Of a stretch of 64,000 nucleotides of DNA, positions 3-44,505 are shown in pieces. Every line of letters starts with the position of its first letter. The stretch's first letter is position 1. The position numbers and the translations under genes were made by a program. Source of the stretch: Candidatus Omnitrophota bacterium (lineage in GTDB: Bacteria; Omnitrophota; Gorgyraeia; Zapsychrales; Fredricksoniimonadaceae); NCBI GenBank assembly GCA_044225175.1, contig JBGAJA010000001.1, positions 329,178 through 393,177 on the forward strand, read 5' to 3'. Under the pieces are notes generated by a model, which made no database searches, was not told the origin of the DNA, and saw only the letters and a program-made list of their open reading frames with translations.

Positions 3-980
3 CCTACCGCCACTTTGCAGGGTTATGTCCGTGATCAAAATGAGCAGGCAATCGCGGGGGCAGAGATATATGTCAATTGGCATAATGGAAATGTTTGGCA
101 GAATAAACCCCAGGGAAAGACAGATGGAACTGGTTTTTATTCTGTTGTGGTGCCTGCAGAGCAGTCTTTATTTCAAAATAGCACAGATTTTTATGTTCGT
201 GTTTGGGCACAGGCTAAAGGTTCCTTTATTCAATGTTGTGAAGAAGCAACTACATCAGTACGGAAAAGTGGTACTTTGTCAGTTGGCCCCCTCTATTCGG
301 GAGATATCTCTTCAAAAGACTTTATCATTGATACATCAGCTCAACAGCAAGAGTGTGGAAATGCGCAGGGAAGGGTCATCAATGATCGAGATTCTTCAGC
401 GGGGGTTCCTAATGCTAACATACAGATGTCTTTACAGGCAAACACGACGGATTCTAATGGAAAATATGTTTATTCTTGTGCTTCTAAGGAGGTAGCTTTT
501 CGATTGCCTGTAGGATTGACGAATGTGGTGGTTGAATCAAATAATTTTTATCCATACACCAGTGCTGGAAACAAATACTATAAATCTCAACCTGCCGTTA
601 AGATTGAAAAAGATCAGAATTTAACTGTTCCAGATATTGGTGTTTGGCCAATTGGGAAAGGTAGAATTCACGGGATCGTTCTTAATGCGAAAACTGATAC
701 TCCAATTCCGAATATAGAGATAAAATTGATGCTCTCGGCAGCAACATCTGTTATGACAGTTATAACGGACTCAAAGGGAGAATTTACTCTGGATTCTGTC
801 GAAGAAACTTGGCCTCCTTCTGGCACTGCAAACAAACATTATGTTGAGACGATCAGAAATCATTATTTTACTGCAGCTGAAACAGCGCTTTATGAGGGAT
901 ATCAAGGAGATGAATTTACCTTGAAGGCGGGAGATGACATAAAAGTTGAAATACAATTAGTTCCCCGAGGGGCTGTTTAA
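3..980 (+). CDS. CarboxypepD_reg-like repeat protein, probably secreted; 5' end is likely beyond the window because the frame is open to position 3
   Basis: Repeated 'G.V.D..G.PI.GA.I' carboxypeptidase-regulatory-like motifs (QGYVRDQNEQAIAGAEIYV, GRVINDRDSSAGVPNANIQM, IHGIVLNAKTDTPIPNIEIKL). The stop overlaps the next start as TAATG. Confidence 0.55.
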   Translation, partial: PTATLQGYVRDQNEQAIAGAEIYVNWHNGNVWQNKPQGKTDGTGFYSVVVPAEQSLFQNSTDFYVRVWAQAKGSFIQCCEEATTSVRKSGTLSVGPLYSGDISSKDFIIDTSAQQQECGNAQGRVINDRDSSAGVPNANIQMSLQANTTDSNGKYVYSCASKEVAFRLPVGLTNVVVESNNFYPYTSAGNKYYKSQPAVKIEKDQNLTVPDIGVWPIGKGRIHGIVLNAKTDTPIPNIEIKLMLSAATSVMTVITDSKGEFTLDSVEETWPPSGTANKHYVETIRNHYFTAAETALYEGYQGDEFTLKAGDDIKVEIQLVPRGAV

Positions 981-1450
981 TGAGAAACAAAAAAGGCGTA
1001 ACTCTGGTAGAATTACTAGTAGTTCTTGTGATTATTGGTATCACGATGGGAATTTTATATGCTGTTTTTTTTATGAATTTACAGGCTTTTGATCAAACTA
1101 TTGCTAATGCTGATTTAGGCGGAGAAATGACAGACATCATGGATCGCATGGCTTCGGACGCACGTTTCTCTAAACAAATAGATGTTACTGTCACGGATAA
1201 TGACAAGAAAGTTGTTTTTACAGGATCTGAGGGTGATCTTATTGCCATTTATACAATGCAAAATGATGGACAATTTTTGAGTAAGCATGGCGATGTGCAA
1301 TCTGCACTGACTAATAAACTTGATTTTGCAAACTCAACTTTTTTAAAGAACGGCAGTTCTATTAAAGTGGTATTAACTTTGCAGGATTCGATTTTTGGTC
1401 ATAATGTTACTCTAAGTTCCGGAACACAAATCTATCCACGTAATAATTAA
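980..1450 (+). CDS. Prepilin-type N-terminal cleavage/methylation domain protein (pseudopilin / minor pilin)
   Basis: N-terminus MRNKKG|VTLVELLVVLVIIGI is the class III signal (G-x-T-L-x-E plus hydrophobic helix). Translationally coupled to neighbours. Confidence 0.8.
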   Translation: MRNKKGVTLVELLVVLVIIGITMGILYAVFFMNLQAFDQTIANADLGGEMTDIMDRMASDARFSKQIDVTVTDNDKKVVFTGSEGDLIAIYTMQNDGQFLSKHGDVQSALTNKLDFANSTFLKNGSSIKVVLTLQDSIFGHNVTLSSGTQIYPRNN

Positions 1451-1451
1451 T

Positions 1452-2708
1452 ATGAAAAGACAAAATCGAATAGGGTTTTCCCTTCTTTCCAGCGTTGTTC
1501 TGGTATTATTTTTAAGCATTGTTGCGTCTGCTGCTTTTATGAGAACGCAAATTCAATTAGGCTATAATAATCAACGCCTTTTGTCCCAACAGGCTTTTAA
1601 CGCCGCAGAGGCAGGTGTTCAAAGGGCTATTTATGAGTTGAGGCGTAATTCAAAGTGGCGTTCGGGAATGGAAGGACAGCCAGATTTTATTGATGTTCCT
1701 TTGAGTTATGGCGATAATCCACCTGTGGTGTTGGGGTATTATACGATTGAAGCAAAGAGTGCCGCCCAAGATTACAATTCTTTTCCATCGGTATGGGTAA
1801 AGGCCACAGGGAAAGATTCCAGTCAAAAGATCGTTCGGTCTATTTTAGCAAGGATCATTGTAGACAGCCCCACTAAGTTTTTTCTTTCAAGTTCAGGAGA
1901 TATAAGAATTGGCAGCGGTTCTACATTTGACAGCGATCTTCTAGGAAAAGATATTTATTTTGATGTTAATGACTCTTTAACAGGTGACCAAAAGAATATA
2001 AATATCAATGGAAAGATATTTTATTTGAGTAAGATCTATGGGGATGATAATCCTGCAGTTAAAATGGGGTCCAAAAGTGGAAAAATTCATTTCCCATCAA
2101 TAACTTTTACTGGAATTGATTTAGACCGTTATAGAACCATTGCTAAACAGTCGGATGGTCGATATATCAATGGGAATTTTACCTATAATGACAACATAGG
2201 TTTGGAGGAGTTAAGCGCCCTTAATGGAGTGGTTTTTGTTGAGGGTGATCTAACTATAGCGGGGAACATTAAAGATTCTATGCTTTTTGTAGCTTCAGGT
2301 AATATTTATATAAATAAAAGCATACTTTCTTCAGACAGTACCAACTCATCACAATTAGGCTTGTTGGCTAAGAAAAATGTTTTTATTACTGAAAATGCTC
2401 CATCAGACATTGAAATCAATGCTTTTATCATGGCTGATGGGGGAGAAGTCCCAAGTGATGAAGAGTATCATGGAGGAATTTTTCAAGCTTTGGGAGATAA
2501 GTTCTCGAAAGGTAAATTGACTTTTAATGGAGCGATGGCCTTGCGTGCTTCATATGAGCGCACAGCTGCAGATTTAAATGTGTATCAAACACGAGATTAT
2601 AAATATAATACCCAATTACGAGATAATCCTCAAATTCCTTTATTGCCTTCTTTCGCAAATATTGTCCATTGGCAGGAAATCAATCCTTCGGAACCAATCC
2701 CAGAATAG
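1452..2708 (+). CDS. PilX-like type IV pilus minor pilin / assembly protein
   Basis: N-terminal hydrophobic segment then 'QQAFNAAEAGVQRAIYEL', typical of the PilX N-terminal domain. Lies directly downstream of the pseudopilin. Confidence 0.55.
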   Translation: MKRQNRIGFSLLSSVVLVLFLSIVASAAFMRTQIQLGYNNQRLLSQQAFNAAEAGVQRAIYELRRNSKWRSGMEGQPDFIDVPLSYGDNPPVVLGYYTIEAKSAAQDYNSFPSVWVKATGKDSSQKIVRSILARIIVDSPTKFFLSSSGDIRIGSGSTFDSDLLGKDIYFDVNDSLTGDQKNININGKIFYLSKIYGDDNPAVKMGSKSGKIHFPSITFTGIDLDRYRTIAKQSDGRYINGNFTYNDNIGLEELSALNGVVFVEGDLTIAGNIKDSMLFVASGNIYINKSILSSDSTNSSQLGLLAKKNVFITENAPSDIEINAFIMADGGEVPSDEEYHGGIFQALGDKFSKGKLTFNGAMALRASYERTAADLNVYQTRDYKYNTQLRDNPQIPLLPSFANIVHWQEINPSEPIPE

Positions 2709-7725: not shown

Positions 7726-8718
7726 ATGGATAAATTTATTATTTTTGCATTAGGTTCAATGGTGGGAAGTTTCTTAAATGTTTGTATAGTCAGAATGCCT
7801 AAGGAAAAATCTATTGTTTTTCCTTCATCTCATTGTCCCAATTGTCAAAAACCAATTGAATGGTATGACAATATTCCTCTTATTAGTTGGATTTTTCTTT
7901 TAGGAAGATGTCGCTATTGTAAACAAAAAATAGCCTTTAGATATTGGTCGGTCGAATTTCTCACTGGTGTTGTCTTTTTGAGTTTTTATATGTATTTTGG
8001 TCCAAGTCCAGTTTTACCAGCTTATTTAGTTATGATGAGTTGTTTTATAGTGGCAACCTTTGTGGATATTGAGCATAGAATTATTCCAGATGAGATTTCT
8101 ATTGGAGGAATGTGGTTAGGACTTATTTTGAGTGCTTTTATACCACAGCTTCATACAAATACAGAGAATTTGCAATTAGGTGGTTTTTTTGCGGGTTTTA
8201 TAGTTCTTCTATGTTTATTTCTTGAAGGGATTTATCCTATATTTTGTAAACATTTAATGACAGAAGAAGAAAAGTATGATGATAAGCCGCTTAAACTACT
8301 TGTTTTGATTTCACTGATTATTGTTAATCTTGTTAATTATCATTTGATTCACGTTCCAGTATTCTTAGAAGGTCACTTGTACAGTTTAGCTTGCGGCCTG
8401 GTTGGATTTATTATTGGCGGTGGTTCTATTTATGCCATGGGACTCTTGGGGGATGTCATTTTTAAGAAAGAAAGTATGGGTGGGGGAGATGTCAAGCTAA
8501 TGGCTATGATTGGCGCATTTCTTGGGTGGAAATTAGCTATATTGGCTTTTTTCATCGCTCCATTTTTTGGAGGAGTTGTTGGAATCATTGAGAAAATTCG
8601 TACCAAAGACAGTACTATTGCCTATGGACCTTTTTTAGTGTTAGGATCATTAGTAAGTTTGTTTTGGGGAGAATGGATTATTCAATGGATCATAGCTGGA
8701 GGGTTCTATCGCCTATGA
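7726..8718 (+). CDS. pilD: Prepilin peptidase (A24 family)
   Basis: N-terminal 'CPNCQKPIEWYDNIPLISW...GRCRYCKQKI' zinc motif and multi-TM A24 peptidase body. Confidence 0.85.
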   Translation: MDKFIIFALGSMVGSFLNVCIVRMPKEKSIVFPSSHCPNCQKPIEWYDNIPLISWIFLLGRCRYCKQKIAFRYWSVEFLTGVVFLSFYMYFGPSPVLPAYLVMMSCFIVATFVDIEHRIIPDEISIGGMWLGLILSAFIPQLHTNTENLQLGGFFAGFIVLLCLFLEGIYPIFCKHLMTEEEKYDDKPLKLLVLISLIIVNLVNYHLIHVPVFLEGHLYSLACGLVGFIIGGGSIYAMGLLGDVIFKKESMGGGDVKLMAMIGAFLGWKLAILAFFIAPFFGGVVGIIEKIRTKDSTIAYGPFLVLGSLVSLFWGEWIIQWIIAGGFYRL

Positions 8719-13798: not shown

Positions 13799-13882
13799 TT
13801 AATAAAAATTTATTAATTATTTACAATGATATTAAAATGCTTATTATCAGTAATTATTAATATATTTAAAAAAGGAAGATCA

Positions 13883-14113
13883 ATGAAAATCGTTAGCAGT
13901 AGAGAAATGCTAAGAGACCAAGATGTTTTAAAAGAAATTAATCGTTATAAATGGATCCAAAGTGAAAAAGAAGGATCAGATATTGGTTTTGAAAGAGCTG
14001 CAAGAGAGTGGATTAATTCTTATTCCAATTCATACCTTAATAGCCATCCCGGAAAAGCGACATCGATGTTAATTACCAGTTTTTTTAACACAGAAATTCA
14101 TATTAAATATTGA
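13883..14113 (+). CDS. Small conserved hypothetical protein, paralog of 32712-32948
   Basis: Shares 'L.D..V..EINR.KW..SE..G.DIGFE.AA..W' with the ORF at 32712. AAAGGAAG RBS precedes the ATG at 13883. Confidence 0.55.
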   Translation: MKIVSSREMLRDQDVLKEINRYKWIQSEKEGSDIGFERAAREWINSYSNSYLNSHPGKATSMLITSFFNTEIHIKY

Positions 14114-14144
14114 TTTTAAATCAAATTTGTTCAATATTTTGTAT

Positions 14145-14180
14145 TGACAATTTCCTTTTTATTTGTAATATATAACTCAT
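14145..14180 (+). promoter_or_regulatory. Putative sigma70-type promoter (TTGACA, 17 bp spacer, AATATA/TATATA) in the long AT-rich leader
   Basis: TTGACAatttcctttttatttgtAATATAtaact lies about 240 nt upstream of the 14421 operon. Confidence 0.35.
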
Positions 14181-14309
14181 ATTGATGATAAATCAATAAT
14201 TCGATTCCCCATCGAATAAAGAAGTTATTCAAATAATCTCCCCAAAGCAACAACGTTTAATGAAATCTCCAAAAGTTTTAGAATTTTATGAAACATATCA
14301 AAATAATCA

Positions 14310-14336
14310 AATTGTGTCCGTAGTGCTGACACAATT
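14310..14336 (+). promoter_or_regulatory. Perfect 9-bp inverted repeat in the 5' leader of the pilin-collar operon
   Basis: AATTGTGTC-cgtagtgct-GACACAATT. No trailing U-tract, so an operator or RNA structure is more likely than a terminator. Confidence 0.4.
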
Positions 14337-14420
14337 GAGTTGGACAAACCATTTGCTCATTCTTTCAAAAACAAAGAAACTGCATGAATATTTCATGTTA
14401 GGTCAAGGAGGTTTGCAAAT

Positions 14421-15320
14421 ATGAAATACTATTTTAAGTTTCAAAAAGCTTTTTCTTTAATTGAAATGTCCATTGTCATGGCAGTTATGGCGGTTTTAGC
14501 TTCTTCGGTTGTTCCGATTGCGATTCGATCTGTGGAGGTGAGGGCTGGGGAAAAAACGGCATTAGAAATGGCTATGATTCAAGAGGCTAGTCAAAATTAT
14601 TTGATTGATAATCATTTATGGCCTTCTGATATAGCAGAATTGCAGGCGAAAGGTTATTTGAACCCTGACTGGATACCTCATAATCCGTGGCATAATTCTA
14701 ATCATAATAATTTGTACGTACTTTCTGCTACGAATTCACTTTTGACAGTATCAACAGATGTTCCTCAGCAATGGTCTAATCTGGTAGCCAGTCATTTGCC
14801 CGGCATTACTATTATTTCTTTGGACAATGGTTATAGCACGGTTTCAAGCAGTATATCCGTCTCAGATAGACACAATAGTGTTCCTACTGGAACAATTATT
14901 CCTTGGTCAGCACCGGTAGATAAGATCCAGGAAGGGTATCTTTTGTGCGATGGCCAAAGTATTAGTCGTGAGAATTTCTCTGATCTTTATTCAGTTATAG
15001 GTACTACATATGGCAGCGATGATACCTCGACTTTTAAAGTTCCTGATTTAAGAGGAAGAACAATAGTTGGATTTAATCATCTGGATGAAGATTTTGGTAC
15101 GCTTGGTCAAGCGGGAGGTGCTAAATCTCACTCTCATATCACTGACGGAAATACGGACTCTGTTCAGATTCGAAATGGGGGGAATTGGAGAATAGACGAT
15201 AACTCAGGTGGGAGTGATTACAATGTTATTGATCCTCATAATCATCACGTGAGGATCCAAAGTGATTCTCAAAAGAATCTATCTCCCTATGTAACAGTGC
15301 ATTTTGTCATTAAAACATAA
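14421..15320 (+). CDS. Fusion protein: type IV pilin-like N-terminus + phage tail-collar (PF07484-type) C-terminal domain
   Basis: N-terminal 'FSLIEMSIVMAVMAVLASSVV' prepilin-like helix with Glu+5. C-terminal 'GYLLCDGQSISRENFSDLYSVIGTTYGSDDTSTFKVPDLRGRTIVG' collar signature. GGAGG RBS. Confidence 0.65.
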   Translation: MKYYFKFQKAFSLIEMSIVMAVMAVLASSVVPIAIRSVEVRAGEKTALEMAMIQEASQNYLIDNHLWPSDIAELQAKGYLNPDWIPHNPWHNSNHNNLYVLSATNSLLTVSTDVPQQWSNLVASHLPGITIISLDNGYSTVSSSISVSDRHNSVPTGTIIPWSAPVDKIQEGYLLCDGQSISRENFSDLYSVIGTTYGSDDTSTFKVPDLRGRTIVGFNHLDEDFGTLGQAGGAKSHSHITDGNTDSVQIRNGGNWRIDDNSGGSDYNVIDPHNHHVRIQSDSQKNLSPYVTVHFVIKT

Positions 15321-15340: not shown

Positions 15341-16123
15341 ATGGTATTTATCCTTATATTCGTTCTGATTCTTTCATCCAATGCTTGGTCTCAGGGAGAT
15401 TTTGATGAACAGAGATCTACGTTATCAAAGTTAGCCGATGAAAGTTGTATTGGAATAGTGCCCTTGGGAGTTTGTCCAAAGGCGAAACATGTGGTTGGTG
15501 CTTTAGTATTATTAAGGGAACCAAGTTTAATCATTCAAACAATTAAGAAAAGCGGGGCTTCTTCCGGAGGCTTAAACGATGGGAATTTACAATTTAATGA
15601 GGTTCGTGTGCTTAATAATCCTTTAGCCAGAAGCTTTCATCAAGCTATTTGTTCGGATCTTCCGGATACTTCGCCCGAAATTTATTATATTTCAGAGCCA
15701 GATGCTCTTGGTTGGAAAGAAGGGAGCTTTGAAAGAAATCTTCCCCAGAGTAGGGTTGCCTCTCAAATAGCCTCTCAATGCTTTCGATTGCCTTTGGGGG
15801 CTCAAGACCAATGTATGAAAACTTGGGGGACACTTTATCCACGGACAGGTTTTATAGTCTCTTCAAGTGAGCCGATGGCTTCAGCCGTTAGCGCAGTCCG
15901 AGCGGTCAGTATTGCTAAAGATCCAGCTCCAGCCCATATTGTTGAATCAAGGTTGCAGTATTCTTTTAATATCAAAGAAGATAAGTTACAAATGATTCAG
16001 CCTGTAACCTCGGTTTCTTGTATCTCTATTGGACAAAACCCTTCAAGTTGGGAAAAAGGCAAAACATCAAAGGATGGTCAGTATGTCTGGTTTTATTGGA
16101 ATTGGCGTCTGTGTTGTATTTAG
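15341..16123 (+). CDS. TraU-like Cys-rich periplasmic protein (F-type conjugative-pilus assembly family), short form
   Basis: Signal peptide. Cys-containing blocks CIGIVPLGVCP, EIYYISEPDALGW, CFRLPLG..C..W and C-terminal 'SSWEKGKTSKDGQYVWFYWNWRLCCI' match TraU blocks as I recall them. Confidence 0.4.
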   Translation: MVFILIFVLILSSNAWSQGDFDEQRSTLSKLADESCIGIVPLGVCPKAKHVVGALVLLREPSLIIQTIKKSGASSGGLNDGNLQFNEVRVLNNPLARSFHQAICSDLPDTSPEIYYISEPDALGWKEGSFERNLPQSRVASQIASQCFRLPLGAQDQCMKTWGTLYPRTGFIVSSSEPMASAVSAVRAVSIAKDPAPAHIVESRLQYSFNIKEDKLQMIQPVTSVSCISIGQNPSSWEKGKTSKDGQYVWFYWNWRLCCI

Positions 16124-16142
16124 AATTGTGGTGTTTGGGTTG

Positions 16143-16448
16143 ATGATTTCAATCTCCTATGCTGCAAATCCTTACAAAATGGGTGAGGTGGATTATTTTC
16201 AACAGCACAACTCTTCAGATTCTTCACAAATGAATCAAAAGTCTTCCTTTGATTTCAGAGAACCTTCTGTGACTGCAGAGGGACAAATTTCTTACTATAC
16301 TCCACCATCAGCTGTTTCCAATTTGCTTGCCAATCCTACATCTGAAAATGCCAGGGCTTATATAAATTGGCAGAAACAAAAAGTGCAAAGGATTATTAAA
16401 GCTCAAGAAATGATTGAGAAAGTAAGCTTAGAAATGACAAAGAGATGA
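16143..16448 (+). CDS. Hypothetical small secreted/membrane-anchored protein
   Basis: ORF overlaps the TraU-like gene. Start chosen at MISISYAANPY. An earlier in-frame ATG at 16074 is also possible. TM/signal segment present. Confidence 0.35.
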   Translation: MISISYAANPYKMGEVDYFQQHNSSDSSQMNQKSSFDFREPSVTAEGQISYYTPPSAVSNLLANPTSENARAYINWQKQKVQRIIKAQEMIEKVSLEMTKR

Positions 16449-17677
16449 TCTATATTCTTATGATTTGTTTATTTCTTCCGAAGTTGTCTTGGGGAGATAT
16501 TTTTTCTAAACCCTCCGAAAGTCCTGATTTAGATCATTTTTTAACCCAAGATGTCAATAATTCTTATTATCGAAATGGGTATGAATATAGTCCTTATGAA
16601 ACGACTAGTCATGCGTATGAGTTTGAAAGACAAAATACTCTAGGGTATAGTTACTATGATTTTCATCGAAGTTTGAAAAACTTTATTGCTAAACCCGATG
16701 AGGATATTGATGAGCTTATGAATAAGCTTTCAGCGCCATCTTCCAGGCTATTATTTTGGCAGTATAGCTCACCTTCCGTCGCTGATTTATACAAGAATTT
16801 GAATACAATTGGACATCTAAGACTGGCACTCCGATATCAACAATATGAAGATATGGAAAAAGCCGTCAATGATCCCTTAGTTAAGCTTAGAAAACAAGCT
16901 GTTTTAGACTGTATCAGGCGGGACTCTAATGATGATATTGAGGTTTCTTTAAGTGATTGCTTTGACAATTTACATAATAAAGGAGTAGAACCTTTTAAAG
17001 AATTAAATGAACCAGGTGATGGTGAAGACTTTATTAAGGGTAAGATTAATATCACAGAAAGGGTGTTAGATCGGGTTAATTTAGATCATCAGGATGTAGG
17101 AGCTGTTAAGAAGATTACCCCAAGGGTATTTATAGATAAGAATTCTGTGTTTGTGAAGGCTCCTCAATTTAGAAGTAGAGAATTGATCAATCAATATAGA
17201 GATGAGTTTATGGGCAAGCTTAAAGGAATAGTTGAGGAATATAGAAAAACGAAGACTTTTAAAGCTCAGGAAGCAGCTTCACTCTCAGTTTTTGGGGTAC
17301 CTTTAACAGAAGGTCAAATCAAGAATATGGCCATACTTGATGAAACTGCTGCATATTTAGCGGTAAACAAGGTTTCTTTCAATCTCGCCTATCTAAAGAC
17401 TATTGATCAGTTTCTTTTAGCTTCAGAAATGTTAGGTCGTGTGATGTCTCACCCTGCTATTCAACCAGGATATAAATTATTGTTAAAAAGTAGTCTGGAT
17501 TACATTTCCACAGAAATTATTGTTTTGAGAGAAGAAAAGAATCGTTTGAATGACTATGCAGATGCAATGCGTACTATTCTAGATCAGGCGGACCAATTAA
17601 GGATCAAGACCATTAAGTCTATTAGAGATAAATCTCAAGATTCTCAAGAGAAAGGATTGTTTAGGTTAAATCCATGA
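16445..17677 (+). CDS. Hypothetical secreted protein (410 aa), same operon
   Basis: Signal peptide MIYILMICLFLPKLSWG. No recognisable domain. Stop overlaps the yraN start. Confidence 0.5.
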   Translation: MIYILMICLFLPKLSWGDIFSKPSESPDLDHFLTQDVNNSYYRNGYEYSPYETTSHAYEFERQNTLGYSYYDFHRSLKNFIAKPDEDIDELMNKLSAPSSRLLFWQYSSPSVADLYKNLNTIGHLRLALRYQQYEDMEKAVNDPLVKLRKQAVLDCIRRDSNDDIEVSLSDCFDNLHNKGVEPFKELNEPGDGEDFIKGKINITERVLDRVNLDHQDVGAVKKITPRVFIDKNSVFVKAPQFRSRELINQYRDEFMGKLKGIVEEYRKTKTFKAQEAASLSVFGVPLTEGQIKNMAILDETAAYLAVNKVSFNLAYLKTIDQFLLASEMLGRVMSHPAIQPGYKLLLKSSLDYISTEIIVLREEKNRLNDYADAMRTILDQADQLRIKTIKSIRDKSQDSQEKGLFRLNP

Positions 17678-24745: not shown

Positions 24746-27700
24746 ATGCTTAAGATTTATTGCTTCCGAAGGACTCTGTGCCTGGGACTAATTTTTGCTT
24801 TTTTGCTTAATACCATTGGCCCATTGCCAGCTTATGCTCACGAACCTCGCCTCCGGAACCTCGTAGGTTCCGAAGGCCAGGTTCCGCAAGGTTTGCCTAA
24901 GCCTGGGGTCATGGTCCATCTAAGCGCCCCTGTAAATCCCCCTTTGCTCAAAGGAATCAAAGTCCATCCAGATAACCCTTTTAGGTTCGATTTTATCCTG
25001 GATACAGGGTATGTCTCCGTCGAGGATACAGATAATTTAAGGCAAGAATCCAGCCGTCTAATCAAGTACTTTTTAGCCTCTTTAACCACCCCAGAAGCCG
25101 ACCTATGGGTGAACCTAAGCCCCTATGAGAAGAATCGTATAGTTCCCGAAAGCTTTGGCCAAACCGAGATGGGCCGAGACCTCCTAGCCCAGGACTACAT
25201 GCTCAAACAAATCACAGCCAGTTTAATGTACCCAGAAGATGGGGTAGGAAAGAGGTTTTGGAAGAGAATCTATGAAGAATCGGCCAAAAGGTATGGAACA
25301 ACCAATATTCCGGTCAATACCTTCAATAAAGTATGGATAGTCCCTGAGAAGGCAGTAGTGTATGAGAATGCCAAGGCAGGGACGGCGTATGTGGTGGAAT
25401 CCAGGTTGAAGGTGATGTTGGAGGAGGATTATGTATCTGTGCAGAAACATTCAAAAACATTGTCGTCCCCGAATGTTTTAGTCGGGGACCTAGGACACGA
25501 GGGTGCTAGATTCCCGACAAAAGCATTCGGGAATGACAAGGATGTTAATATAGGTAATCAAATCATCCGCGAAATCGTCATCCCCGAATTAACCAAGGAA
25601 ATCAATGAAGGATCGAATTTCGCCCAATTGCGTCAGGTCTATAACAGTCTGATCCTGGCCACCTGGTACAAGAAGAAAATTAAAGATTCAATCTTTACGA
25701 AGGTTTATGTGGATCGGAATAAGGTTGTGGGTCTTGGGTATATGGGAGGTGAGCCACAACAAATCTACCAACGCTACCTGAATGCCTTCAAGAAAGGTGT
25801 TTACAATTATATCAAGGAAGAATCCGATCCAATTTCCCAGAAACGTGTCACAAGAAAATATTTTAGCGGAGGCACTACATTTAACGATCAAGCCATGAAT
25901 GCAGTATTTCATACTACCCAAGATGGTACAAAAATTATTAAGATGGCAATTGATAATTCAGTTATTGTTCAGGTTGGCATAAAAGATTTTGCTATGGCTA
26001 GTACTAAACTCAAATCTCCGTCTGATATATTGGTTTATACACCTGAAAATGGAGCCACTGTAAAAAAGGGTAGAATAACTGGAGCTAAGCCAGTTGAAAT
26101 TTTTCCCAACGCGATCTGGGCAACAAGAAATATATCTCAACTTGTACAAGGTAATGAATTTCTTGTAGATATTCCATTAACCAAGGATAAAAAATTTCGT
26201 CTTTTAGGAGTGGATTGGAATTTAAGAGGAGGATCTGAAGGAGAAAGAATAGTAGCGCAGTTTAGAAAAGAGGACGGAAATTATGTTTTAATAACTGCTT
26301 ACAATGAAGCAGGAGAAGTAATTTACGAAAAAGATATTGATTCAAAGATTGAACAAAACAAAGAAGCAAAAGTTTATACTCCTGGGTCAGGAGCAAAGAT
26401 TGAAAATGGAAAAATTGTAGGAAAACCCACTGATAAATTTCCTCAAAACGCAGCCACGCGAAGACTATTAGAGCTAAATTTAGAAGAGTTTTATTTAGAT
26501 GTCAAACTCAATAGTGGAGGACAACTAAATCTTTTTCAAGAGAATTGGTGGGGCAAGAAGACAGAGTATGCAGACCAAAGAGTAAGTGTTCATTTTAAGA
26601 AAGAAAAAGGAGCGTACCAACTAGTAGCTGCTTATGACAAAGACGGAAATCTCATTTATCCTATTTCTGAAGATGAACAAATCCAATTATTTATTCCTTC
26701 TGATAAAACTCGTATTGAAAATGGAAAAGTTATCGGTACGCCTAGTCAAACATATTCTAATAAACATACCGCCATTAAATCTATTGATCTTCCGGAGTTT
26801 TATATAAAACTCCGTCTTAATCAATACGGTGGGCTTAATATGTGGGGACAACAAATGGCTCCCCGAAAAGGCTATGAAAATGCTGAAGTTCTCGTTCATT
26901 TCAAAAAATTTGAAGATACATATACCGCCATAGCTATTTATGACGCAAATGGAGAACAAATCGAACAGGAAGCCCCTGAACAAGTCGTTATTTATATTCC
27001 CAAAGAAGGGACAAGGTTAGAGAACGGAAAGATTGTTGGTAAAGCTTCACGTACATATGACAGTAGAATTTGGGCGGCCCGTGAATTAATGACTGATATC
27101 GCAAATTCACCAGAAGAATTTTACACTGAATTGACTTTAACCGATAAGGGCGGCTTTTCTTTCTTTAGTAAATGGTGGGCATCAAAAAAAGGTTACGAAA
27201 AGGCAAAAATTACAGCTCACTTTCGAAAAGTTAAGAATGAGTATGATCTGGTCGCTGTATATGATTCTAATGGTCAAGAAATCTATAGCCAAAATAAACA
27301 ACAAGAAGGGAAGATAGAAATTTTTACCCCTCAAAATGGTTCGCATATCAAAGATGGATTGCTTCAAGCCGGTCAACCTGAAACTGTTTTGTATCATGCA
27401 AGATCTGTACCAACCTATCTTGAAGATCACCCTCTTGAAGAATTTTTTGTAAGAACACATTTGGATGATAAGGGTGGTTTTTATCTAATGGGAGAGCATT
27501 GGTGGACGAGTAAAAGTGGTTCTGAAAATGTAGAGGTGGTCGTCCACTTTAAGAAAAATGAAGAAGGACAATATGAGTTGGAAGCTGCTTATGACCAAAA
27601 AGGTCAAGATTTAACCGTTGAAAAAGAACCAATAAAGATCTATGCCTCTAGAAATGGAGCAACAATTGTTCAAGGGAAAATATCAGGACAACCTGTTAGT

Positions 27701-30700
27701 CAATTTCCTAAGAAGACGCAAGCGTTACGCTTATTGAAGCAGTTGGATAGTGAAGATATTTATCTAGAAGTCACTCTTAGTAATGATGGTGGTTTTCTTA
27801 TTAGTTCTTATCGTAAATTAGCTTTGCCAGGCTATGAAAATACAAAAGTATTACTTCATTTTCAAAATAAAAATTCAAAAAAGAACCTTATCAATGTATA
27901 TGACAGCCAAGGCAATGTTATCTGGGGAGAAATTTACGATAGTAAAACAAGAGTTTATATCGCAGACAATGAAGTAAAATTAAATGAAGGAAAGGTTGTT
28001 GGTCAACCGGCAGAAACATTTACTACTCAAAGGGATGCTATTAAATTTGTTACTGCAAGAAAAATTAAGGAATTTTATTTAACTACTCCACTCACATCAC
28101 AGGCAGGTATTTACTTAGGCAGAGATTTTTGGCAATCAGATAATATAAGAAAACACCAGAACTCACTTGCTACTCTCCATTTTCGTTTAAATGAAGGCTC
28201 CCAATATGAACTTGTAGCGAGCTATGATCAAGATGGTAGGCGGTTGAACTTAATAAAAGTTAAATCTGATGAGATTATTGAAATTCACACTTCCGAAGGT
28301 GGATCAAAAATAGAAAATGGGTTTATTGTAGGAGAACCAATCGAGATATCTTCTAGTAAACTTGCCGCACAGCAGATTGTATCAGCAATGAGTCACTCCG
28401 ATGTTTTTGTAAAAATGCGTATAGGAGAAATGGGCAAAATTAGTTTTATGGGGCATTGGGCAAGCAGGTCTAATTCTGCCAATAAAGAAGTGCATTCGCA
28501 TTTTAAAAAACAAGATATGAGATATGTGTTGGTTGCTGCCTATGAGGCTGGTCAGAAAATTTATCCGAAAGAAGAGAACGAACAGGATAAGATCAGTATT
28601 TATAGCGCACATACAGGGGCTGTAATTGAGGAAGGGAAAATTAAAGGTCAACCTATTGAAACATTTAGTGACAAGATTCAAGCGTCATTGACTATACAAT
28701 CAATGGGATTGACAGACTTTTTTGTAAAAATGCGTTTGGATGGACAGGGTAAGCTATATTTTCTTGGAAGACATTGGTGGGGAGGCAAGAAAGGTCATGA
28801 AGATGCAGAGGTTTTGATACATTTTAAAAAGAGTCCAGAAAAAGGTTATGAATTAATTGATGCCTATGATAATCAAGGTAATTTAATCTACCCTACTGGA
28901 AAAAGAGATCCTTATAGTGTAGAAAGAAAAAGATTTAACGTAATGATTGGGGCCGAAGAAGCTCAAAAATTACTAGAAACATTAGGGCTGGAGGCCACAT
29001 TTGGACTTCTTTCACGGGCACATGGCTTCACCCCAACATTCCTTGCTCAAACACTAACGGGTTATGCCGAGAAAATACAAAGTGAAGGTAATCAGTTTGG
29101 GTATGCTTCAAATCGTAGTTTTTCATTTGTTCAAGCGCGACAATCCAACGTTTTTAGTAAAATTGAGCCTGATAAGCTGGATGTAGTTGTCGAGACATTG
29201 ATAAGAAGCATGTATAAGGATGTTGTTGAAGATAATCATTTTCTTAATGTTTTAAGAGAGCAAAGTGAAAATCCTTCCAATGGAGACATGCTGCAAAAAG
29301 CTTATAAACAAGTAGCTGATTATTATGACCATCAATTAAAAATCGAAATGGGAGGCATTGATGAAACAGCTATTTTACCGAAACTATACCAGAGGATTGG
29401 CGCGCAGTTTTTAATTGATAGAAAGCATGCCATTCTAGCTGATGAACCTGGTTTAGGAAAAACACTAGAAGCGATCATGGCAGTTGTGAATGTGCCGGAA
29501 TTTGACAAAGATGTAAGAGATGCGGGTTATCGAGAAGGTGAAATGATAGAGCCAAAAGAGAAGATTTTAATTATTGCACCTAAAAGAGCAGCTGATCGTG
29601 TATGGAAAAGAGAAATCCAAGCATATACAACGGGTCGTTTAAAGGTTGAAGTAGTTAACCGATCAAAAATTCGTAGCCGTTCAACAGTAGATAAAAACCC
29701 CGAATTAAATCTAAAAAGAAGATTTGATAGAATCAAGCAGGCCCAAGTTCTTATTGTTAATCCTTATGCAATTGCAGGAGAAGATGGTAACGGATTGCTT
29801 TTAAGAGAACATCTTAAGCAGTTTAAATATAAGGTCATCATATTGGATGAAGCTCATAATATTCGTAATGAAAGTACATTGACTGATGCTGTCCGTGAAT
29901 TTGATGCTGAATATAAATTCGCTTTGACTGCGACTCCTTTGGTTGGACAAACAGTTGCAAAATTATTTAATTTACTTCAATGGCTATATCCAGAACGGTA
30001 TAAAGATAAATGGAACTTTTCAGTTAAATATGCTGGCAGAGAGAAGGCATTTTTATTAAGACAAGAGTTGCGGCCATTTTTGTTAAGACGAACAAAAGTG
30101 GATGTTACAGACATGCCTTTAAAGAATTATGTTAACGTTCCCGTAAGCCTTACTGATGAAGAAAGACAATTTTATTTAGAGGTTGCAAATTACTTCTCAA
30201 TCTGGATAAAAAGTTCTATTAGACAAAATGATCCAAAATATTATTTGAAGATTCTTTCTCAACTTTCTCGACTACGCTTAGCAGCCCTCAATACGGGATT
30301 GATTATTCGCCTTCAAAATAATGGAGAAAAGATTTTTGCTTATACTGGAGGAAGCTTCACTCTGGGCAATCGTAAGTATAGATTTACTAAAGAAAAGGAA
30401 GTTATTGTTGGTTTGAAGGATGAAGAGGGGCATGAATTTCGTTTTGAAAAAGGGAAGTCAGGTACTCAAGTTACTATTGATAAGAAAGTTTATGAAGTTC
30501 AGGTTAAGGATAATTTAAATCCAAGCCGGTATTTAGCTATTGATAAAATTATAGAGGAGAAAATAGCTAAAGGGGAAAAGGTTATTCTAAATACGAATTA
30601 TCGGGAAGTTGTTTTTCAATTAGCGGCTCGGTATAAACATTATGGGGTGAATTATGCATTTGGTGATATGACAAGCTCCCAAGTTGATAGTGAAATTGAA

Positions 30701-43169: not shown

Positions 43170-43263
43170 ATCAGGGGGATCAGGGGACACACAACGTAAT
43201 TCAAGTTAGGCTAAAGGTTAGGTAATAATTAAGTTGTGTGTACCCAGAATTCTAGGGAGCTAT

Positions 43264-43911
43264 ATGATCTATTTTATCCTAGGAATTGTTCTACTTTTTT
43301 TAAACATTTGGTTTTTTACATCCTATTCAGAGCTTTTAGAGAAAATTATGAGCGGGCAATGGGATTATATTTATCTTTTTTGCTCTGGGTATTTTATTAT
43401 TTTGGTAGAAATACTTTATCTTTTTTGTTCAATCCCGATTTATTTTTTAAATTTATATTTGTTTAATAAGTATTCATCTTCTTTTAGTTCTTTAGGATTA
43501 GAAATTAAGAAGTTTAATCCCTTTAATCCGTTTAGTTTTCTTTTATCTTTTAAGTATAAGGGGAGAGATATTGAAATCCTTAACTACAGATCGGTAAGAG
43601 GAAATCAAGCAATGATTATTCGTATTAAAATAAAAAATAAACCTAAATTTACTGACTTTAAATCAAAAAACGATTATTTAAGTTTTCCAATTAATTTTAA
43701 TGACGATCCAACTACTAGTGAAAAAGCAAAGACACTTCTTGAAGATTTATATAATCAAACAATTACATTTGAATTAAGAGGTCATACTTTTGAGAAAAAA
43801 GTCACTATTGATGGAAAAGAAGCCGATAAAGTAATGCTAATAATAGCGGGAATACTTTGCCTCTTGGTGGCAGCCGCCTTTTATATGGGTTATTACAGAG
43901 GTTTGGGGTAA
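43264..43911 (+). CDS. Hypothetical membrane protein encoded in a very AT-rich islet
   Basis: Two N-terminal and one C-terminal TM helix. Strongly AT-skewed codon usage unlike its neighbours. A TTG at 43234 is an alternative start. Confidence 0.45.
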   Translation: MIYFILGIVLLFLNIWFFTSYSELLEKIMSGQWDYIYLFCSGYFIILVEILYLFCSIPIYFLNLYLFNKYSSSFSSLGLEIKKFNPFNPFSFLLSFKYKGRDIEILNYRSVRGNQAMIIRIKIKNKPKFTDFKSKNDYLSFPINFNDDPTTSEKAKTLLEDLYNQTITFELRGHTFEKKVTIDGKEADKVMLIIAGILCLLVAAAFYMGYYRGLG

Positions 43912-44109: not shown

Positions 44110-44505
44110 ATGGCGCGTGACATTCAAGCCCTTCTAGACTATACACAGTGGCGTAATTTTTTACAGGTCATTGATAAGGCTAAGTTAGCATGTTTAAATT
44201 CAAGGCAGATTGTTTCAGACCATTTTGCTGACGTCAGCAAAATGGTCAAGTTAGGGTCAGATAGTGAGTGTCAAATTGACGATATCATGCTAACTCGCTA
44301 TGCCTGTTATCTCATTGCCCAAAATGGTGAACCACCCATTGCTCAGGAGCATGTTAAAAACAATAAAGATGTGCGAGGTTTATTGGCTAAAAGTGGAATT
44401 CAACCCGAAAATCTTCCTCCTGAAGAGGATGTTCAGAAATTTCAACGCAGGGTTAGTAGCGACCAAAAAAAGATAGCTTTAAGTGTTAAGAAGATTAAGA
44501 AATAA
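44110..44505 (+). CDS. DinD / BRO-N-like (KilA-N related) DNA-damage-inducible-type protein
   Basis: '[26 protein letters not shown]' and '[20 protein letters not shown]' resemble DinD/RhuM-type N-domains. Confidence 0.45.

What the first reader, a model, noticed from the sequence alone, without database searches (positions are those of the whole stretch)
14421..15320. Type IV pilin N-terminus fused to a phage tail-collar domain
The N-terminus (KA|FSLIEMSIVMAVMAVLA) is a class-III-signal/pilin helix, but with Ala rather than the canonical Gly at -1. The C-terminus has the tail-collar signature 'LLCDGQSISRENFSDLYSVIGTTYGSDDTSTFKVPDLRGR' and is rich in HNH/WxxN motifs (HNPWHNSNHNN, DPHNHH). This would put a phage receptor-binding-type domain on a pilus-type fibre. 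It might be an adhesin or a minor pilin with a lectin-like tip.
Basis: partly seen in the sequence, partly recalled or inferred. Interest (0 to 1): 0.7.

Follow-up and report, generated by a model that had tools for sequence, protein, structure and literature searches.

The report
Pilin tipped with phage tail-fibre domain
This gene encodes a pilus subunit whose outer half is a phage tail-fibre receptor-binding domain, most likely the target-recognising tip of a pilus that, in related tiny Omnitrophota bacteria, is encoded inside a conjugation-like secretion gene cluster.

Summary
ORF 14421-15320 (+), 299 aa, passes Pfam's curated thresholds for the prepilin N-terminal motif (PF07963) and the phage tail collar domain (PF07484). 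It is a conserved family: about 40 clusters at 50% identity, and named members are Omnitrophota. Residues 11-146 fold as a type IV pilin, closest to type IVb pilins. Residues 147-299 match the whole C-terminal receptor-binding domain of phage tail fibre and minor tail proteins, whose solved relatives are trimers. Ala at -1 is ordinary: 12 of 27 family members have Ala and 15 have Gly.

The context is the more interesting part. In every Omnitrophota locus with enough flank, the gene is followed by homologues of TraU, TraF and TraH. In most it is the last pilin gene of a type IVb-like pilus module, in the position that the tip adhesin PilV holds on conjugative plasmids. In the four loci that reach far enough upstream, VirB4-type TraC (three also with a cell-wall-crossing secretin, one also with TraB and TraV) lies before it. 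The window lineage keeps only pilin-collar, TraU, a truncated TraF and TraH.

Best reading: a probably trimeric tip adhesin for target-cell recognition. Function, trimerisation and processing are inferred, not shown. Novelty: a new variant of known modular pilins.

The parts
14421..15320 (+). Pilin-collar gene (299 aa): a modular type IV pilin with a phage tail-fibre-type C-terminal module.
   Evidence: ORF and translation. PF07963 and PF07484 both score above their curated cut-offs, as does TIGR02532. The family alignment is A1.
14421..14450 (+). Leader peptide MKYYFKFQKA (10 aa), with predicted prepilin-peptidase cleavage after Ala10. Phe+1 and Glu+5 follow.
   Evidence: Match to the N_methyl / TIGR02532 motif. 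In the family, -1 is Gly in 15 and Ala in 12 members, while +1 Phe and +5 Glu are invariant. Cleavage itself is inferred.
14451..14858 (+). Pilin module (aa 11-146): a long N-terminal helix plus a beta-sheet head. It contains the NPWHN motif with the NSNHN insertion.
14889..15065 (+). Tail collar domain (aa 157-215), long variant carrying ...LLCDGQ...F.VPDLRGR.
   Evidence: PF07484 at E=1.1e-19, covering profile positions 1-57 of 57. pLDDT is about 72-91 in ten-residue blocks. Most relatives have a short variant, CDGTNGTPDLRD.
15066..15317 (+). Variable tip (aa 216-299) with HxH motifs at aa 237-239 and 273-276 and a conserved C-terminal strand, PYVTVHFVIKT.
   Evidence: The family profile aligns over positions 127-289 to the trimeric tail-fibre structures 9qgo, 9nxk and 6ov6, E=2e-20 to 1e-16. 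There are weak matches to Gp10_C and to T4 gp12 and gp37. pLDDT is below 50 in the monomer model. The tip is mosaic.
15341..16123 (+). TraU-like periplasmic protein (260 aa), with a signal peptide, 8 Cys and an internal deletion of about 40 aa relative to its closest homologues.
   Evidence: PF06834 at 72 bits against a cut-off of 26.5. The nearest NCBIfam model is TIGR03756, an ICE-type TraU, below its cut-off. Alignment. It follows the pilin-collar gene in all related loci with enough flank.
16104..16448 (+). TraF-like remnant of about 114 aa (first ATG at 16080, coordinates from 16104; the mechanical ORF runs from a TTG at 16029). It is the N-terminal part only, and the thioredoxin/CxxC domain is missing.
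   Evidence: phmmer gives E=2e-13 to the V. archaeovorus homologue. That homologue and its relatives hit Pfam TraF PF13728 and Thioredoxin_2. The alignment shows the truncation.
16445..17677 (+). TraH-like protein (410 aa).
   Evidence: It has no direct Pfam hit. phmmer gives E=9e-38 to the V. archaeovorus homologue, which hits TraH PF06122 at 50 bits against a cut-off of 25. Seven of 13 aligned homologues hit TraH. A weak TIGR03755 match was also seen.
7726..8718 (+). Prepilin peptidase (PilD type, peptidase A24), the enzyme expected to process the pilin-collar leader.
   Evidence: PF06750 at 120 bits and PF01478 at 72.5 bits. That it acts on this substrate is inferred.

Best explanation
The gene encodes a modular minor type IV pilin. 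The 10-residue leader is removed after Ala(-1) by the genome's A24 prepilin peptidase. The hydrophobic helix and pilin head (aa 11-146) then insert the protein into a type IV filament. The C-terminal 150 residues (collar plus HxH tip) are a phage tail-fibre receptor-binding domain.

This domain is trimeric in all solved relatives. Three copies therefore probably join into a homotrimeric cap that starts pilus assembly and ends up at the pilus tip, as CofB and TcpB do in type IVb pili. There it would bind a surface structure on another cell. This is the job that PilV does for conjugative thin pili and that the same domain does for phages.

In related Omnitrophota the gene is the last pilin gene of a type IVb-like pilus module. 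That module comprises a secretin, a ~396-aa protein in the position of PilO, a PilP-like protein, an ATPase, a platform protein and pilins. In the loci that reach far enough upstream it lies between T4SS genes: TraC in four loci, TraB and TraV with a weak TraE match in one, and TraU-TraF-TraH downstream in three of the four (the fourth ends after the pilin-collar gene). The pilus therefore most likely docks the cell onto a host, prey or recipient cell for that machine.

Shown here: domain identities, fold of the pilin module, homology of the C-module to tail fibres, family conservation, mosaic tips and gene order. Inferred: cleavage, trimerisation, tip location, ligand and target cell.
For: Domains: both Pfam hits exceed their curated cut-offs, as does TIGR02532. 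The peptidase gene is in the window.

Fold: the pilin module is confidently modelled. It is closest to CFA/III and TcpA type IVb pilins and to pseudopilins.

C-module:
- The family profile matches the trimeric tail-fibre tips 9qgo, 9nxk and 6ov6 at E=2e-20 to 1e-16, and more weakly T4 gp12 and gp37. Foldseek finds the cyanophage A-1(L) fibre and gp12.
- aa 147-299 align over 93-95% of their length at 35-37% identity to actinophage minor tail proteins, with matches in 696 phage records.

Three-fold unit:
- Each of the three closest solved relatives is deposited with three chains.
- About 60 of the 150 best hits in the exhaustive search carry exactly three tandem copies of the module, for example P0193 and P0198 (my count from the table).
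- aa 216-289 are disordered in a monomer model, as expected for an intertwined trimer.

Minor or tip pilin: in relatives, one to three small pilin genes precede it, one with a PilS (type IVb major pilin) match. The gene order equals PilN-PilO-PilP-ATPase-platform-major pilin-PilV of a conjugative plasmid.

Receptor-binding behaviour: conservation falls from the pilin module (43-63%) to the collar (23-48%) to the tip (5-20%). The window's tip is 53% identical (E=2e-24) to that of P0004, whose pilin module is only 46% identical. The tips of the proteins with the closest pilin or collar segments are unrelated.

Linkage: pilin-collar then TraU, (Trx), TraF, TraH in all Omnitrophota loci with enough flank, although the upstream flanks differ. 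TraC (four loci), TraB and TraV (one locus) and a secretin (three loci) lie upstream in L031, L033, L034 and L035.

Precedents: modular pilins (PMC8179133); the CofB tip trimer (PMC10191384); a PilV-tail collar fusion (PMC9881135).
Against:
- The window itself contains no pilus ATPase, platform protein, secretin or TraC. In this lineage the machine is either encoded elsewhere or partly lost.
- The window's TraU has an internal deletion and its TraF lacks the thioredoxin domain, so the system may be degenerating here.
- A homotrimeric head has to be reconciled with the staggered, one-start helical packing of pilin helices. The linker (aa 140-156) is short.
- No coupling protein or relaxase was seen in the flanks examined, so the purpose of the T4SS-like genes is unknown.
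- Taxonomic labels are available for only part of the family.
Confidence: 0.62

Rival explanations
1. It is a filament-body subunit, either the major pilin or a minor pilin scattered along the shaft. It would display the collar domain as a monomer, or as laterally associated copies, along the pilus and give a 'hairy' adhesive fibre.
For: In the window lineage no small pilin gene lies next to it. Its leader (short, Phe+1, Glu+5) is that of a polymerising pilin. Raynaud et al. note that a body location for modular pilins cannot be excluded if the linker is flexible.
Against: Most relatives have separate 140-176-aa pilin genes directly upstream, one of PilS type. The window has another ordinary pilin at 980-1450. 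The C-module's solved relatives are obligate trimers, and tandem-triplicated versions are common. A 150-residue head on every subunit is hard to pack.
Confidence: 0.12
2. It is a pseudopilin-like internal part of the T4SS/T4P hybrid machine. It would form a short periplasmic fibre whose collar head contacts TraU/TraF/TraH, the secretin or the cell wall, and it would never be exposed on the surface.
For: The linkage to TraU-TraF-TraH is the tightest and most conserved, and it survives in the window lineage when the rest of the cluster has moved or been lost. NCBIfam gives sub-threshold GspG and ComGC similarity. The pilin module resembles the pseudopilins EpsG and PulG.
Against: An internal structural contact should be conserved. 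Instead the tip is the fastest-evolving, mosaic part, which is the signature of an exposed receptor-binding surface. TraU, by contrast, is at least 60% identical across the 120 best-scoring of 165 clusters.
Confidence: 0.12
3. It is a membrane-anchored or released trimeric fibre that uses the class III signal only for export and anchoring, as archaeal 'bindosome' proteins do, and is not polymerised into a filament.
For: Class III signals are used in this way in some archaeal systems (established knowledge, not tested here). No assembly machinery is present in the window.
Against: Glu+5 and Phe+1 are invariant and the pilin head is complete and conserved. These features are needed for polymerisation, not for anchoring. 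The gene sits among pilins, an ATPase, a platform protein and a secretin in relatives.
Confidence: 0.08
4. It is a prophage or tailocin tail-fibre gene whose hydrophobic N-terminus only resembles a pilin.
For: The C-module is clearly phage-related. PGAP-style names such as 'tail fiber protein' are attached to one relative.
Against: No phage structural genes lie nearby, and the neighbours are housekeeping genes and tra homologues. GC content is native, 0.387 against 0.368 for the window. The N-terminal 146 residues are the best-conserved part and fold as a pilin. Chromosomal synteny is conserved across genomes.
Confidence: 0.02

Closest known systems
Modular type IV pilins (Raynaud et al. 2021, PMC8179133), for example S. 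sanguinis PilB (vWA module) and PilC (lectin module)
   Same: A small N-terminal pilin module with the IPR012902 motif is joined by a short linker to a ligand-binding module that is not specific to pili. The proposed role is tip adhesin.
   Different: Here the grafted module is a phage tail collar/tail-fibre tip. In their catalogue of 1,219 proteins IPR011083 appears in only two single-protein architectures, and never as the plain two-module form. The module is expected to be an obligate trimer.
PilV, the shufflon-variable tip adhesin of conjugative type IVb thin pili (R64, PAPI-1-type elements), including the PilV-tail collar fusion UCP91044.1 (Milman et al. 2023, PMC9881135)
   Same: In relatives, the gene is the last pilin gene after secretin, PilO-like, PilP-like, ATPase, platform and major pilin genes, which is the same order as on plasmid pPYO_TB. 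It is linked to conjugation-type genes. It has a conserved N-terminus and a variable C-terminus. A collar domain on a PilV has been reported, with the same 'repurposed phage domain' idea.
   Different: There is no Shufflon_N (PF04917) match. There are no alternative C-terminal cassettes or inversion repeats. Variation is between lineages, by mosaic exchange, rather than within a cell. The associated tra genes are of F/G type (TraU/F/H), not I type.
CofB / TcpB, homotrimeric minor pilins at the tip of type IVb pili
   Same: A pilin module is joined to a beta-rich C-terminal domain. The proposed homotrimer primes assembly and sits at the tip. The predicted pilin fold is closest to the cognate major pilins CofA and TcpA.
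Phage tail-fibre and short-tail-fibre receptor-binding tips (T4 gp12 and gp37, cyanophage A-1(L) fibre, PDB 9qgo and 9nxk, actinophage minor tail proteins)
   Same: The domain is homologous over its whole length, with the collar motif, HxH motifs and the C-terminal strand. In gp12 and gp37 the HxH histidines of three chains bind Zn or Fe on the three-fold axis (established knowledge).
   Different: The domain is attached to a pilin rather than to a fibre shaft, and it is encoded in a cellular chromosome with no phage genes around it.
F-type and ICE (MPF_G) type IV secretion systems, with accessory proteins TraU, TraW, TraF and TraH
   Same: TraU, TraF and TraH homologues follow the gene. In relatives a VirB4-type TraC precedes the pilus module in four loci, and TraB/VirB10 and TraV (with a weak TraE match) in one, in the F-plasmid order. 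These accessory proteins are known only from MPF_F and MPF_G (PMC4027160).
   Different: All matches are far below the equivalog cut-offs. A type IV pilus module is inserted between TraC and TraU. No VirB2-type pilin, coupling protein or relaxase was seen in the flanks. The cluster is chromosomal and vertically conserved in Omnitrophota.

Membership tests
Type IV pilin (prepilin-type N-terminal cleavage/methylation proteins) | Class III signal motif recognised by curated models | tested here: met
   PF07963 scores 25.0 bits against 21.2. TIGR02532 scores 27.4 bits against 16.3.
Type IV pilin (prepilin-type N-terminal cleavage/methylation proteins) | Short hydrophilic leader ending in Gly or Ala, then about 20 hydrophobic residues with Glu at +5 | tested here: met
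   The leader and start of the mature protein read MKYYFKFQKA|FSLIEMSIVMAVMAVLA. In the family, -1 is Gly in 15 and Ala in 12 members, and +1 Phe and +5 Glu are invariant. The Gly-or-Ala rule is stated in PMC10191384.
Type IV pilin (prepilin-type N-terminal cleavage/methylation proteins) | Lollipop fold: a long alpha-1 helix packed on a beta-sheet head | tested here: met
Type IV pilin (prepilin-type N-terminal cleavage/methylation proteins) | A cognate prepilin peptidase in the genome | tested here: met
   The ORF at 7726-8718 carries PF06750 plus PF01478.
Type IV pilin (prepilin-type N-terminal cleavage/methylation proteins) | Actual cleavage, N-methylation and incorporation into a filament | not testable with these tools
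   This needs biochemistry or pilus preparations.
Phage tail collar / tail-fibre receptor-binding domain (PF07484 and the downstream tip) | Collar domain match above the curated threshold | tested here: met
   70.6 bits against 24, with the full profile covered, positions 1-57.
Phage tail collar / tail-fibre receptor-binding domain (PF07484 and the downstream tip) | Homology of the whole C-terminal module to bona fide phage tail fibre tips | tested here: met
   PDB profile hits 9qgo, 9nxk and 6ov6 at E=2e-20 to 1e-16. Matches in 696 phage records, with 93-95% coverage at 35-37% identity.
Phage tail collar / tail-fibre receptor-binding domain (PF07484 and the downstream tip) | Homotrimeric, intertwined assembly | not testable with these tools
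The evidence is indirect: each closest solved relative is deposited with three chains, triple tandem copies are frequent, and the monomer model is disordered at aa 216-289.
Phage tail collar / tail-fibre receptor-binding domain (PF07484 and the downstream tip) | HxH motifs for axial metal binding | tested here: inconclusive
   HSH at aa 237-239 and HNHH at aa 273-276 are present. The second aligns with the conserved (P/G)HxH of the family and of 9qgo, 9nxk and 6ov6. Metal binding was not tested.
PilV shufflon tip adhesin of conjugative thin pili | Shufflon_N (PF04917) constant region | tested here: not met
   There is no such hit at E<=1.
PilV shufflon tip adhesin of conjugative thin pili | Alternative C-terminal segments flanked by inversion sites, with a dedicated recombinase | tested here: not met
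   There is no second copy of the C-module in the window (tblastn) and there are no convincing inverted repeats. The upstream tyrosine recombinase is of the XerC/D type and is syntenic with TopA and DprA.
PilV shufflon tip adhesin of conjugative thin pili | Last pilin gene of a secretin-PilO-PilP-ATPase-platform-major pilin cluster linked to conjugation genes | tested here: inconclusive
   This is met in relatives (L008, L010-L015, L031-L035) when compared with plasmid pPYO_TB. It is not met in the window itself, where only TraU/TraF/TraH remain adjacent.
CofB/TcpB-type initiator minor pilins | Sequence or fold homology beyond the pilin module | tested here: not met
F/G-type T4SS accessory set (for the neighbouring genes) | TraU, TraF and TraH family matches | tested here: met
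   Window TraU hits PF06834 at 72 bits. TraF (PF13728) and TraH (PF06122) exceed their cut-offs in homologues that are clearly related to the window genes. All are far below the NCBIfam equivalog cut-offs, so they are distant members.

The most novel reading that the evidence does not exclude
The pilin-collar protein is the target-recognition tip of a previously undescribed hybrid machine that is vertically conserved in Omnitrophota. In this machine a type IVb-like pilus module sits inside an F/G-type T4SS cluster (TraC upstream in four loci, TraB and TraV in one; TraU-TraF-TraH downstream), and the F-pilus assembly factors TraU, TraF and TraH have been re-wired to a type IV pilin filament. 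These ultra-small epibionts or predators would use a phage-derived trimeric tip to choose and dock onto host or prey cells before contact-dependent transfer of macromolecules. That would fit the reported movement of predator RNA into Methanothrix cells by Ca. Velamenicoccus archaeovorus (PMC13153191), whose genome carries the same operon (L013).
Probability: 0.3. Interest if true: 0.85.

Novelty: new variant of a known kind. Interest (0 to 1): 0.6.

Why it matters
Omnitrophota are uncultured nanobacteria thought to live on or prey upon other cells. How they recognise and attach to partners is unknown. A pilus subunit carrying a phage receptor-binding tip that is swapped between lineages is a concrete candidate for the host-range determinant. 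It can be expressed and tested on glycan arrays or on candidate host cells.

It is also a clean natural example of a trimeric phage domain grafted onto a pilin. That bears on how homotrimeric tip complexes prime type IV pilus assembly.

The gene is embedded, phylum-wide, between homologues of conjugative T4SS genes. This suggests a hybrid pilus/secretion apparatus that the Omnitrophota papers I could search do not mention. It could explain contact-dependent transfer in these predators.

Tried and rejected
- A look-up of the window protein's own contig failed, as it is not on record. The organism is therefore inferred from relatives.
The afdb50 fold library was unavailable.
- Shufflon idea: no silent C-terminal cassettes or inversion repeats were found. 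The recombinase upstream is an ordinary XerC/D-type gene in conserved synteny.
- tRNA or att-site idea for the 620-bp gap upstream: no tRNA was found.
- The promoter and terminator scan was uninformative, with counts near the shuffled expectation.
- The idea that the small ORF at 14260-14424 is a remnant of the YhcG/DUF1016 gene found between the platform and pilin genes in L031 has only a weak phmmer hit (E=0.003) and no tblastn hit. It is left open.
- I tested whether more distant TraC relatives in predatory Halobacteriovoraceae share the hybrid cluster. They do not: one is an ordinary VirB-type ICE, and another hit sits among transposases.
- The TraU homologue search returned only close (at least 60% identical) Omnitrophota-type proteins, so it gave no view outside the phylum.
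- The R64 record was not in the plasmid collection, so a P. aeruginosa conjugative plasmid was used for the gene-order comparison instead.
- The prophage or tailocin reading was rejected for lack of any phage neighbours and because GC content is native.
Full report
**1. The observation**

The ORF at 14421-15320 (+) is real.
- Pfam gives the phage tail collar domain PF07484 at E=1.1e-19 (70.6 bits, cut-off 24, aa 157-215, whole profile).
- Pfam gives the prepilin N-terminal methylation motif PF07963 at E=1.3e-5 (25.0 bits, cut-off 21.2, aa 7-30).
- A weak Gp10_C match covers aa 212-297.
- NCBIfam TIGR02532 is also above its cut-off.
- The ORF at 7726-8718 is a peptidase A24 prepilin peptidase.

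Both 'would refute' conditions of the finding therefore fail.

Two details need correcting. The HNPWHNSNHNN string is at aa 86-96, inside the pilin module. It is the family's NPW(Q/H)N motif plus a 5-residue insertion. The His motifs of the C-terminal domain are HSH at 237-239 and HNHH at 273-276.

**2. It is a conserved family, not a one-off fusion**

A word-indexed search found 27 full-length or nearly full-length relatives, 34-55% identical. Those with names come from Candidatus Omnitrophica/Omnitrophota MAGs. The window protein itself is on record from an NCBI contig of 819,945 bp.

An exhaustive profile search of 1.84 billion representatives gave 339 hits at E<=1e-30. Of the 150 best, about 40 clusters at 50% identity have both modules in a protein of 240-345 aa (my count from the table).

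A scan of one genome per species found the gene in 15 genomes. Most are labelled Omnitrophota; four carry other labels ('uncultured Planctomycetes' or simply 'bacterium'). They include the complete genome of the epibiotic predator Ca. Velamenicoccus archaeovorus LiM (L013).

In the alignment, Phe+1 and Glu+5 are invariant. The -1 residue is Gly in 15 members and Ala in 12. A current review states that leaders end 'invariably' in Gly or Ala (PMC10191384). Ala(-1) is therefore ordinary here.

**3. Anatomy**

The AlphaFold2 model built on the family alignment has three regions:
- a confident pilin module, with helix 13-64 and strands 100-146 at pLDDT about 90;
- a fairly confident collar, aa 157-215;
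- an unmodelled tip, aa 216-289, with pLDDT below 50.

By sequence, profile positions 127-289 match tail-fibre proteins solved as three chains:
- 9qgo at 2e-20, 9nxk at 8e-18 and the Bizionia C24 protein 6ov6 at 1e-16;
- more weakly, gp12 and gp37.

The conserved (P/G)HxH near the C-terminus aligns in all of them. Against phage genomes, aa 147-299 align over 93-95% of their length at 35-37% identity to actinophage minor tail proteins, with matches in 696 records. The C-terminal half is thus a complete tail-fibre receptor-binding domain, not just a collar motif.

**4. The three-fold unit**

I could not model a trimer. Three indirect lines point to one:
- Each closest solved relative is deposited with three chains.
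- In the exhaustive search, roughly 60 of the 150 best hits are 400-1,100-aa proteins with exactly three tandem copies of this module, for example P0193 and P0198. These are single-chain versions of a trimer.
- The tip is disordered in a monomer model.

A homotrimeric minor pilin at the tip has a precedent in CofB and TcpB of type IVb pili.

**5. Pattern of variation**

Identity to the window protein falls from 43-63% in the pilin module to 23-48% in the collar and 5-20% in the tip.

The protein is a three-part mosaic:
- Its pilin module is closest to P0008 and P0010.
- Its long collar is closest to P0002, P0003, P0005 and P0006.
- Its tip (aa 225-298) is 53% identical (E=2e-24) to the tip of P0004, whose pilin module is only 46% identical. 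The tips of P0008 and P0003 are unrelated.

TraU next door is at least 60% identical across the 120 best-scoring of 165 clusters. A fast-evolving, exchangeable tip on a conserved stem is how phage receptor-binding proteins behave. There is no within-genome switching device: the window has no second copy of the module and no inversion repeats. GC content is native.

**6. Context**

In the window the gene is followed by three tra homologues:
- a TraU homologue at 15341-16123 (PF06834, 72 bits);
- a 114-aa remnant of a TraF-like protein at 16104-16448;
- a 410-aa protein at 16445-17677.

The homologues of the last two in V. archaeovorus and elsewhere hit Pfam TraF plus Thioredoxin_2 and Pfam TraH, above the cut-offs.

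This order holds in every related locus with enough flank, although the upstream neighbour differs. It is XerC in the window, L004 and L005, and RNase HII in L001.

In the other Omnitrophota loci (L008, L010-L015, L017-L019) the gene is preceded by one or two small pilin genes, one with a PilS type IVb match. Before those come a GspF-type platform, a GspE/PilB-type ATPase and three small proteins.

In more distant members (L031-L035) the cluster continues upstream:
- a secretin (best plasmid matches are 'PilN family type IVB') and a lipoprotein;
- a VirB4-type TraC;
- in L034, also TraV, a VirB10/TrbI-type TraB and a weak TraE match.

The pilus part is collinear with the conjugative type IVb pilus cluster of a P. 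aeruginosa plasmid: PilN, PilO2, PilP, ATPase, platform, major pilin, PilV. The pilin-collar gene occupies the position of PilV, the tip adhesin that selects recipients.

The tra part follows the F-plasmid order (TraB, TraV and TraC, preceded in L034 by a weak TraE match; then TraU, TraF and TraH), with the pilus module inserted between TraC and TraU. The F order is from established knowledge. The restriction of TraU/W/F/H to MPF_F and MPF_G is from PMC4027160. The nearest NCBIfam models are the ICE-type TIGR03756 and TIGR03755, far below their cut-offs. I saw no VirB2-type pilin, coupling protein or relaxase in the flanks.

**7. The window lineage is reduced**

The 64-kb window has no ATPase, platform, secretin or TraC. 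Its TraU lacks about 40 internal residues, and its TraF lacks the CxxC thioredoxin domain that relatives have. Either the other parts lie elsewhere in the genome or the system is being simplified. The pilin-collar ORF itself is intact.

**8. Mechanism proposed**

Steps inferred but not shown are marked.
1. The prepilin is inserted in the membrane and the leader is cut after Ala10 by the A24 peptidase (inferred).
2. Three subunits join through their C-modules into a cap, with HxH histidines possibly binding a metal on the axis as in gp12 and gp37 (inferred).
3. The cap primes polymerisation of the small major pilin beneath it and is carried out through the secretin (inferred).
4. The tip binds a surface glycan or protein of another cell, as PilV does for mating pairs and as the phage domain does for infection (inferred).
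5. TraU/TraF/TraH are periplasmic, Cys-rich or thiol-redox proteins needed for F-pilus extension. They probably assist assembly or coupling to the T4SS part. Why they stay glued to this pilin is unexplained.

I put 0.62 on the tip-adhesin reading. Rivals are a shaft-decorating subunit (0.12), an internal pseudopilus part (0.12), an anchored non-polymerised fibre (0.08) and a phage remnant (0.02).

**9. What is known, and novelty**

Modular pilins are an established class. In the 2021 catalogue the collar domain appears in only two single-protein architectures, one of them with the PilV constant region. A PilV-tail collar fusion targeted by inversions was reported in 2023, with the same idea of a repurposed phage domain.

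The present family differs in four ways:
- It has no Shufflon_N region.
- It has no shufflon.
- It has a distinct, conserved pilin module.
- It has a fixed place in a chromosomal T4SS/T4P hybrid cluster of Omnitrophota.

The Omnitrophota papers I could search mention type IVa and Tad pili, but not TraU, a collar pilin or conjugation genes. Only the open-access library was searchable, so absence there is not proof of novelty.

I therefore rate the finding itself as a new variant of a known kind. The cluster context is the part with the most potential.

Noticed in passing
L033 1-14832; L034 6279-21812; L031 1-13353; L013 24-11141: In related Omnitrophota a type IVb-like pilus module (lipoprotein, secretin, a ~396-aa protein in the position of PilO, a PilP-like protein, ATPase, platform, 2-3 pilins, pilin-collar) is nested between T4SS genes: a VirB4-type TraC upstream (in L034 also TraB/VirB10, TraV and a weak TraE match) and TraU-Trx-TraF-TraH downstream. 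No coupling protein, relaxase or VirB2-type pilin was seen in the flanks. I found no description of this hybrid cluster in the searchable literature.
   Followed up: partly
window 15341-16448: The window's TraU lacks about 40 internal residues that its closest homologues (L001, L004) have. In this lineage TraF is cut down to its N-terminal ~110 aa and has lost the thioredoxin domain with its CxxC motif (GCPVC or GCPYC in L013 and L033). This suggests reductive evolution of the cassette.
   Followed up: partly
window 15-2708: At the window's left edge, an ORF running in from outside carries CarboxypepD_reg (PF13620) and Big_1 domains. It is followed by an ordinary 156-aa type IV pilin (980-1450, KKG|VTLVEL) and a 418-aa protein with no family match. 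PF13620 is one of the commonest modules of modular pilins, so this may be a second pilin/adhesin cluster.
   Followed up: partly
window 13799-14420: A 620-bp gap between XerC and the pilin-collar gene holds two small ORFs. The ORF at 13826-14113 has a weak DUF4032 match. The ORF at 14260-14424 has a weak phmmer hit (E=0.003) to the YhcG/DUF1016 nuclease gene that sits between the platform and pilin genes in L031 and L032. It may be a scar of the deletion that separated this cassette from the rest of the cluster. The same junction is 140 bp in L004 and 2.3 kb in L005.
   Followed up: partly
window 24746-32662: A 2,638-aa ORF lies downstream of a SpoU methylase gene. Very long proteins are a noted trait of Omnitrophota. 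It was not analysed.
   Followed up: no
L013 6883-8332 (minus strand): In Ca. Velamenicoccus archaeovorus a GNAT toxin / TacA antitoxin pair on the opposite strand is inserted between the pilin-collar gene and TraU, interrupting an otherwise compact operon.
   Followed up: no
one search hits, e.g. P0193 (533 aa), P0198 (522 aa), P0215 (2,022 aa, 9 copies): There is a large population of non-pilin proteins with exactly three tandem copies (or another multiple of three) of the collar-plus-tip module in one chain. Some have an N-terminal membrane or signal segment. They look like single-chain pseudo-trimeric fibre tips.
   Followed up: partly
window 1-63000: Every ORF of at least 100 aa but two (50061-50414 and 63489-63992) is on the + strand across 64 kb. 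GC content is 36.8%. Gene order around the cassette (LeuA, AroE, PilD, AroK, DprA, TopA, XerC ... YraN, RsfS, ArgS, RecJ, M3 peptidase) is shared with L004, and partly with L001.
   Followed up: partly
window 44110-44505: A BRO-N domain protein, a family common in phages and mobile elements, sits among housekeeping genes, next to a 225-aa ORF with no family match (43234-43911).
   Followed up: no
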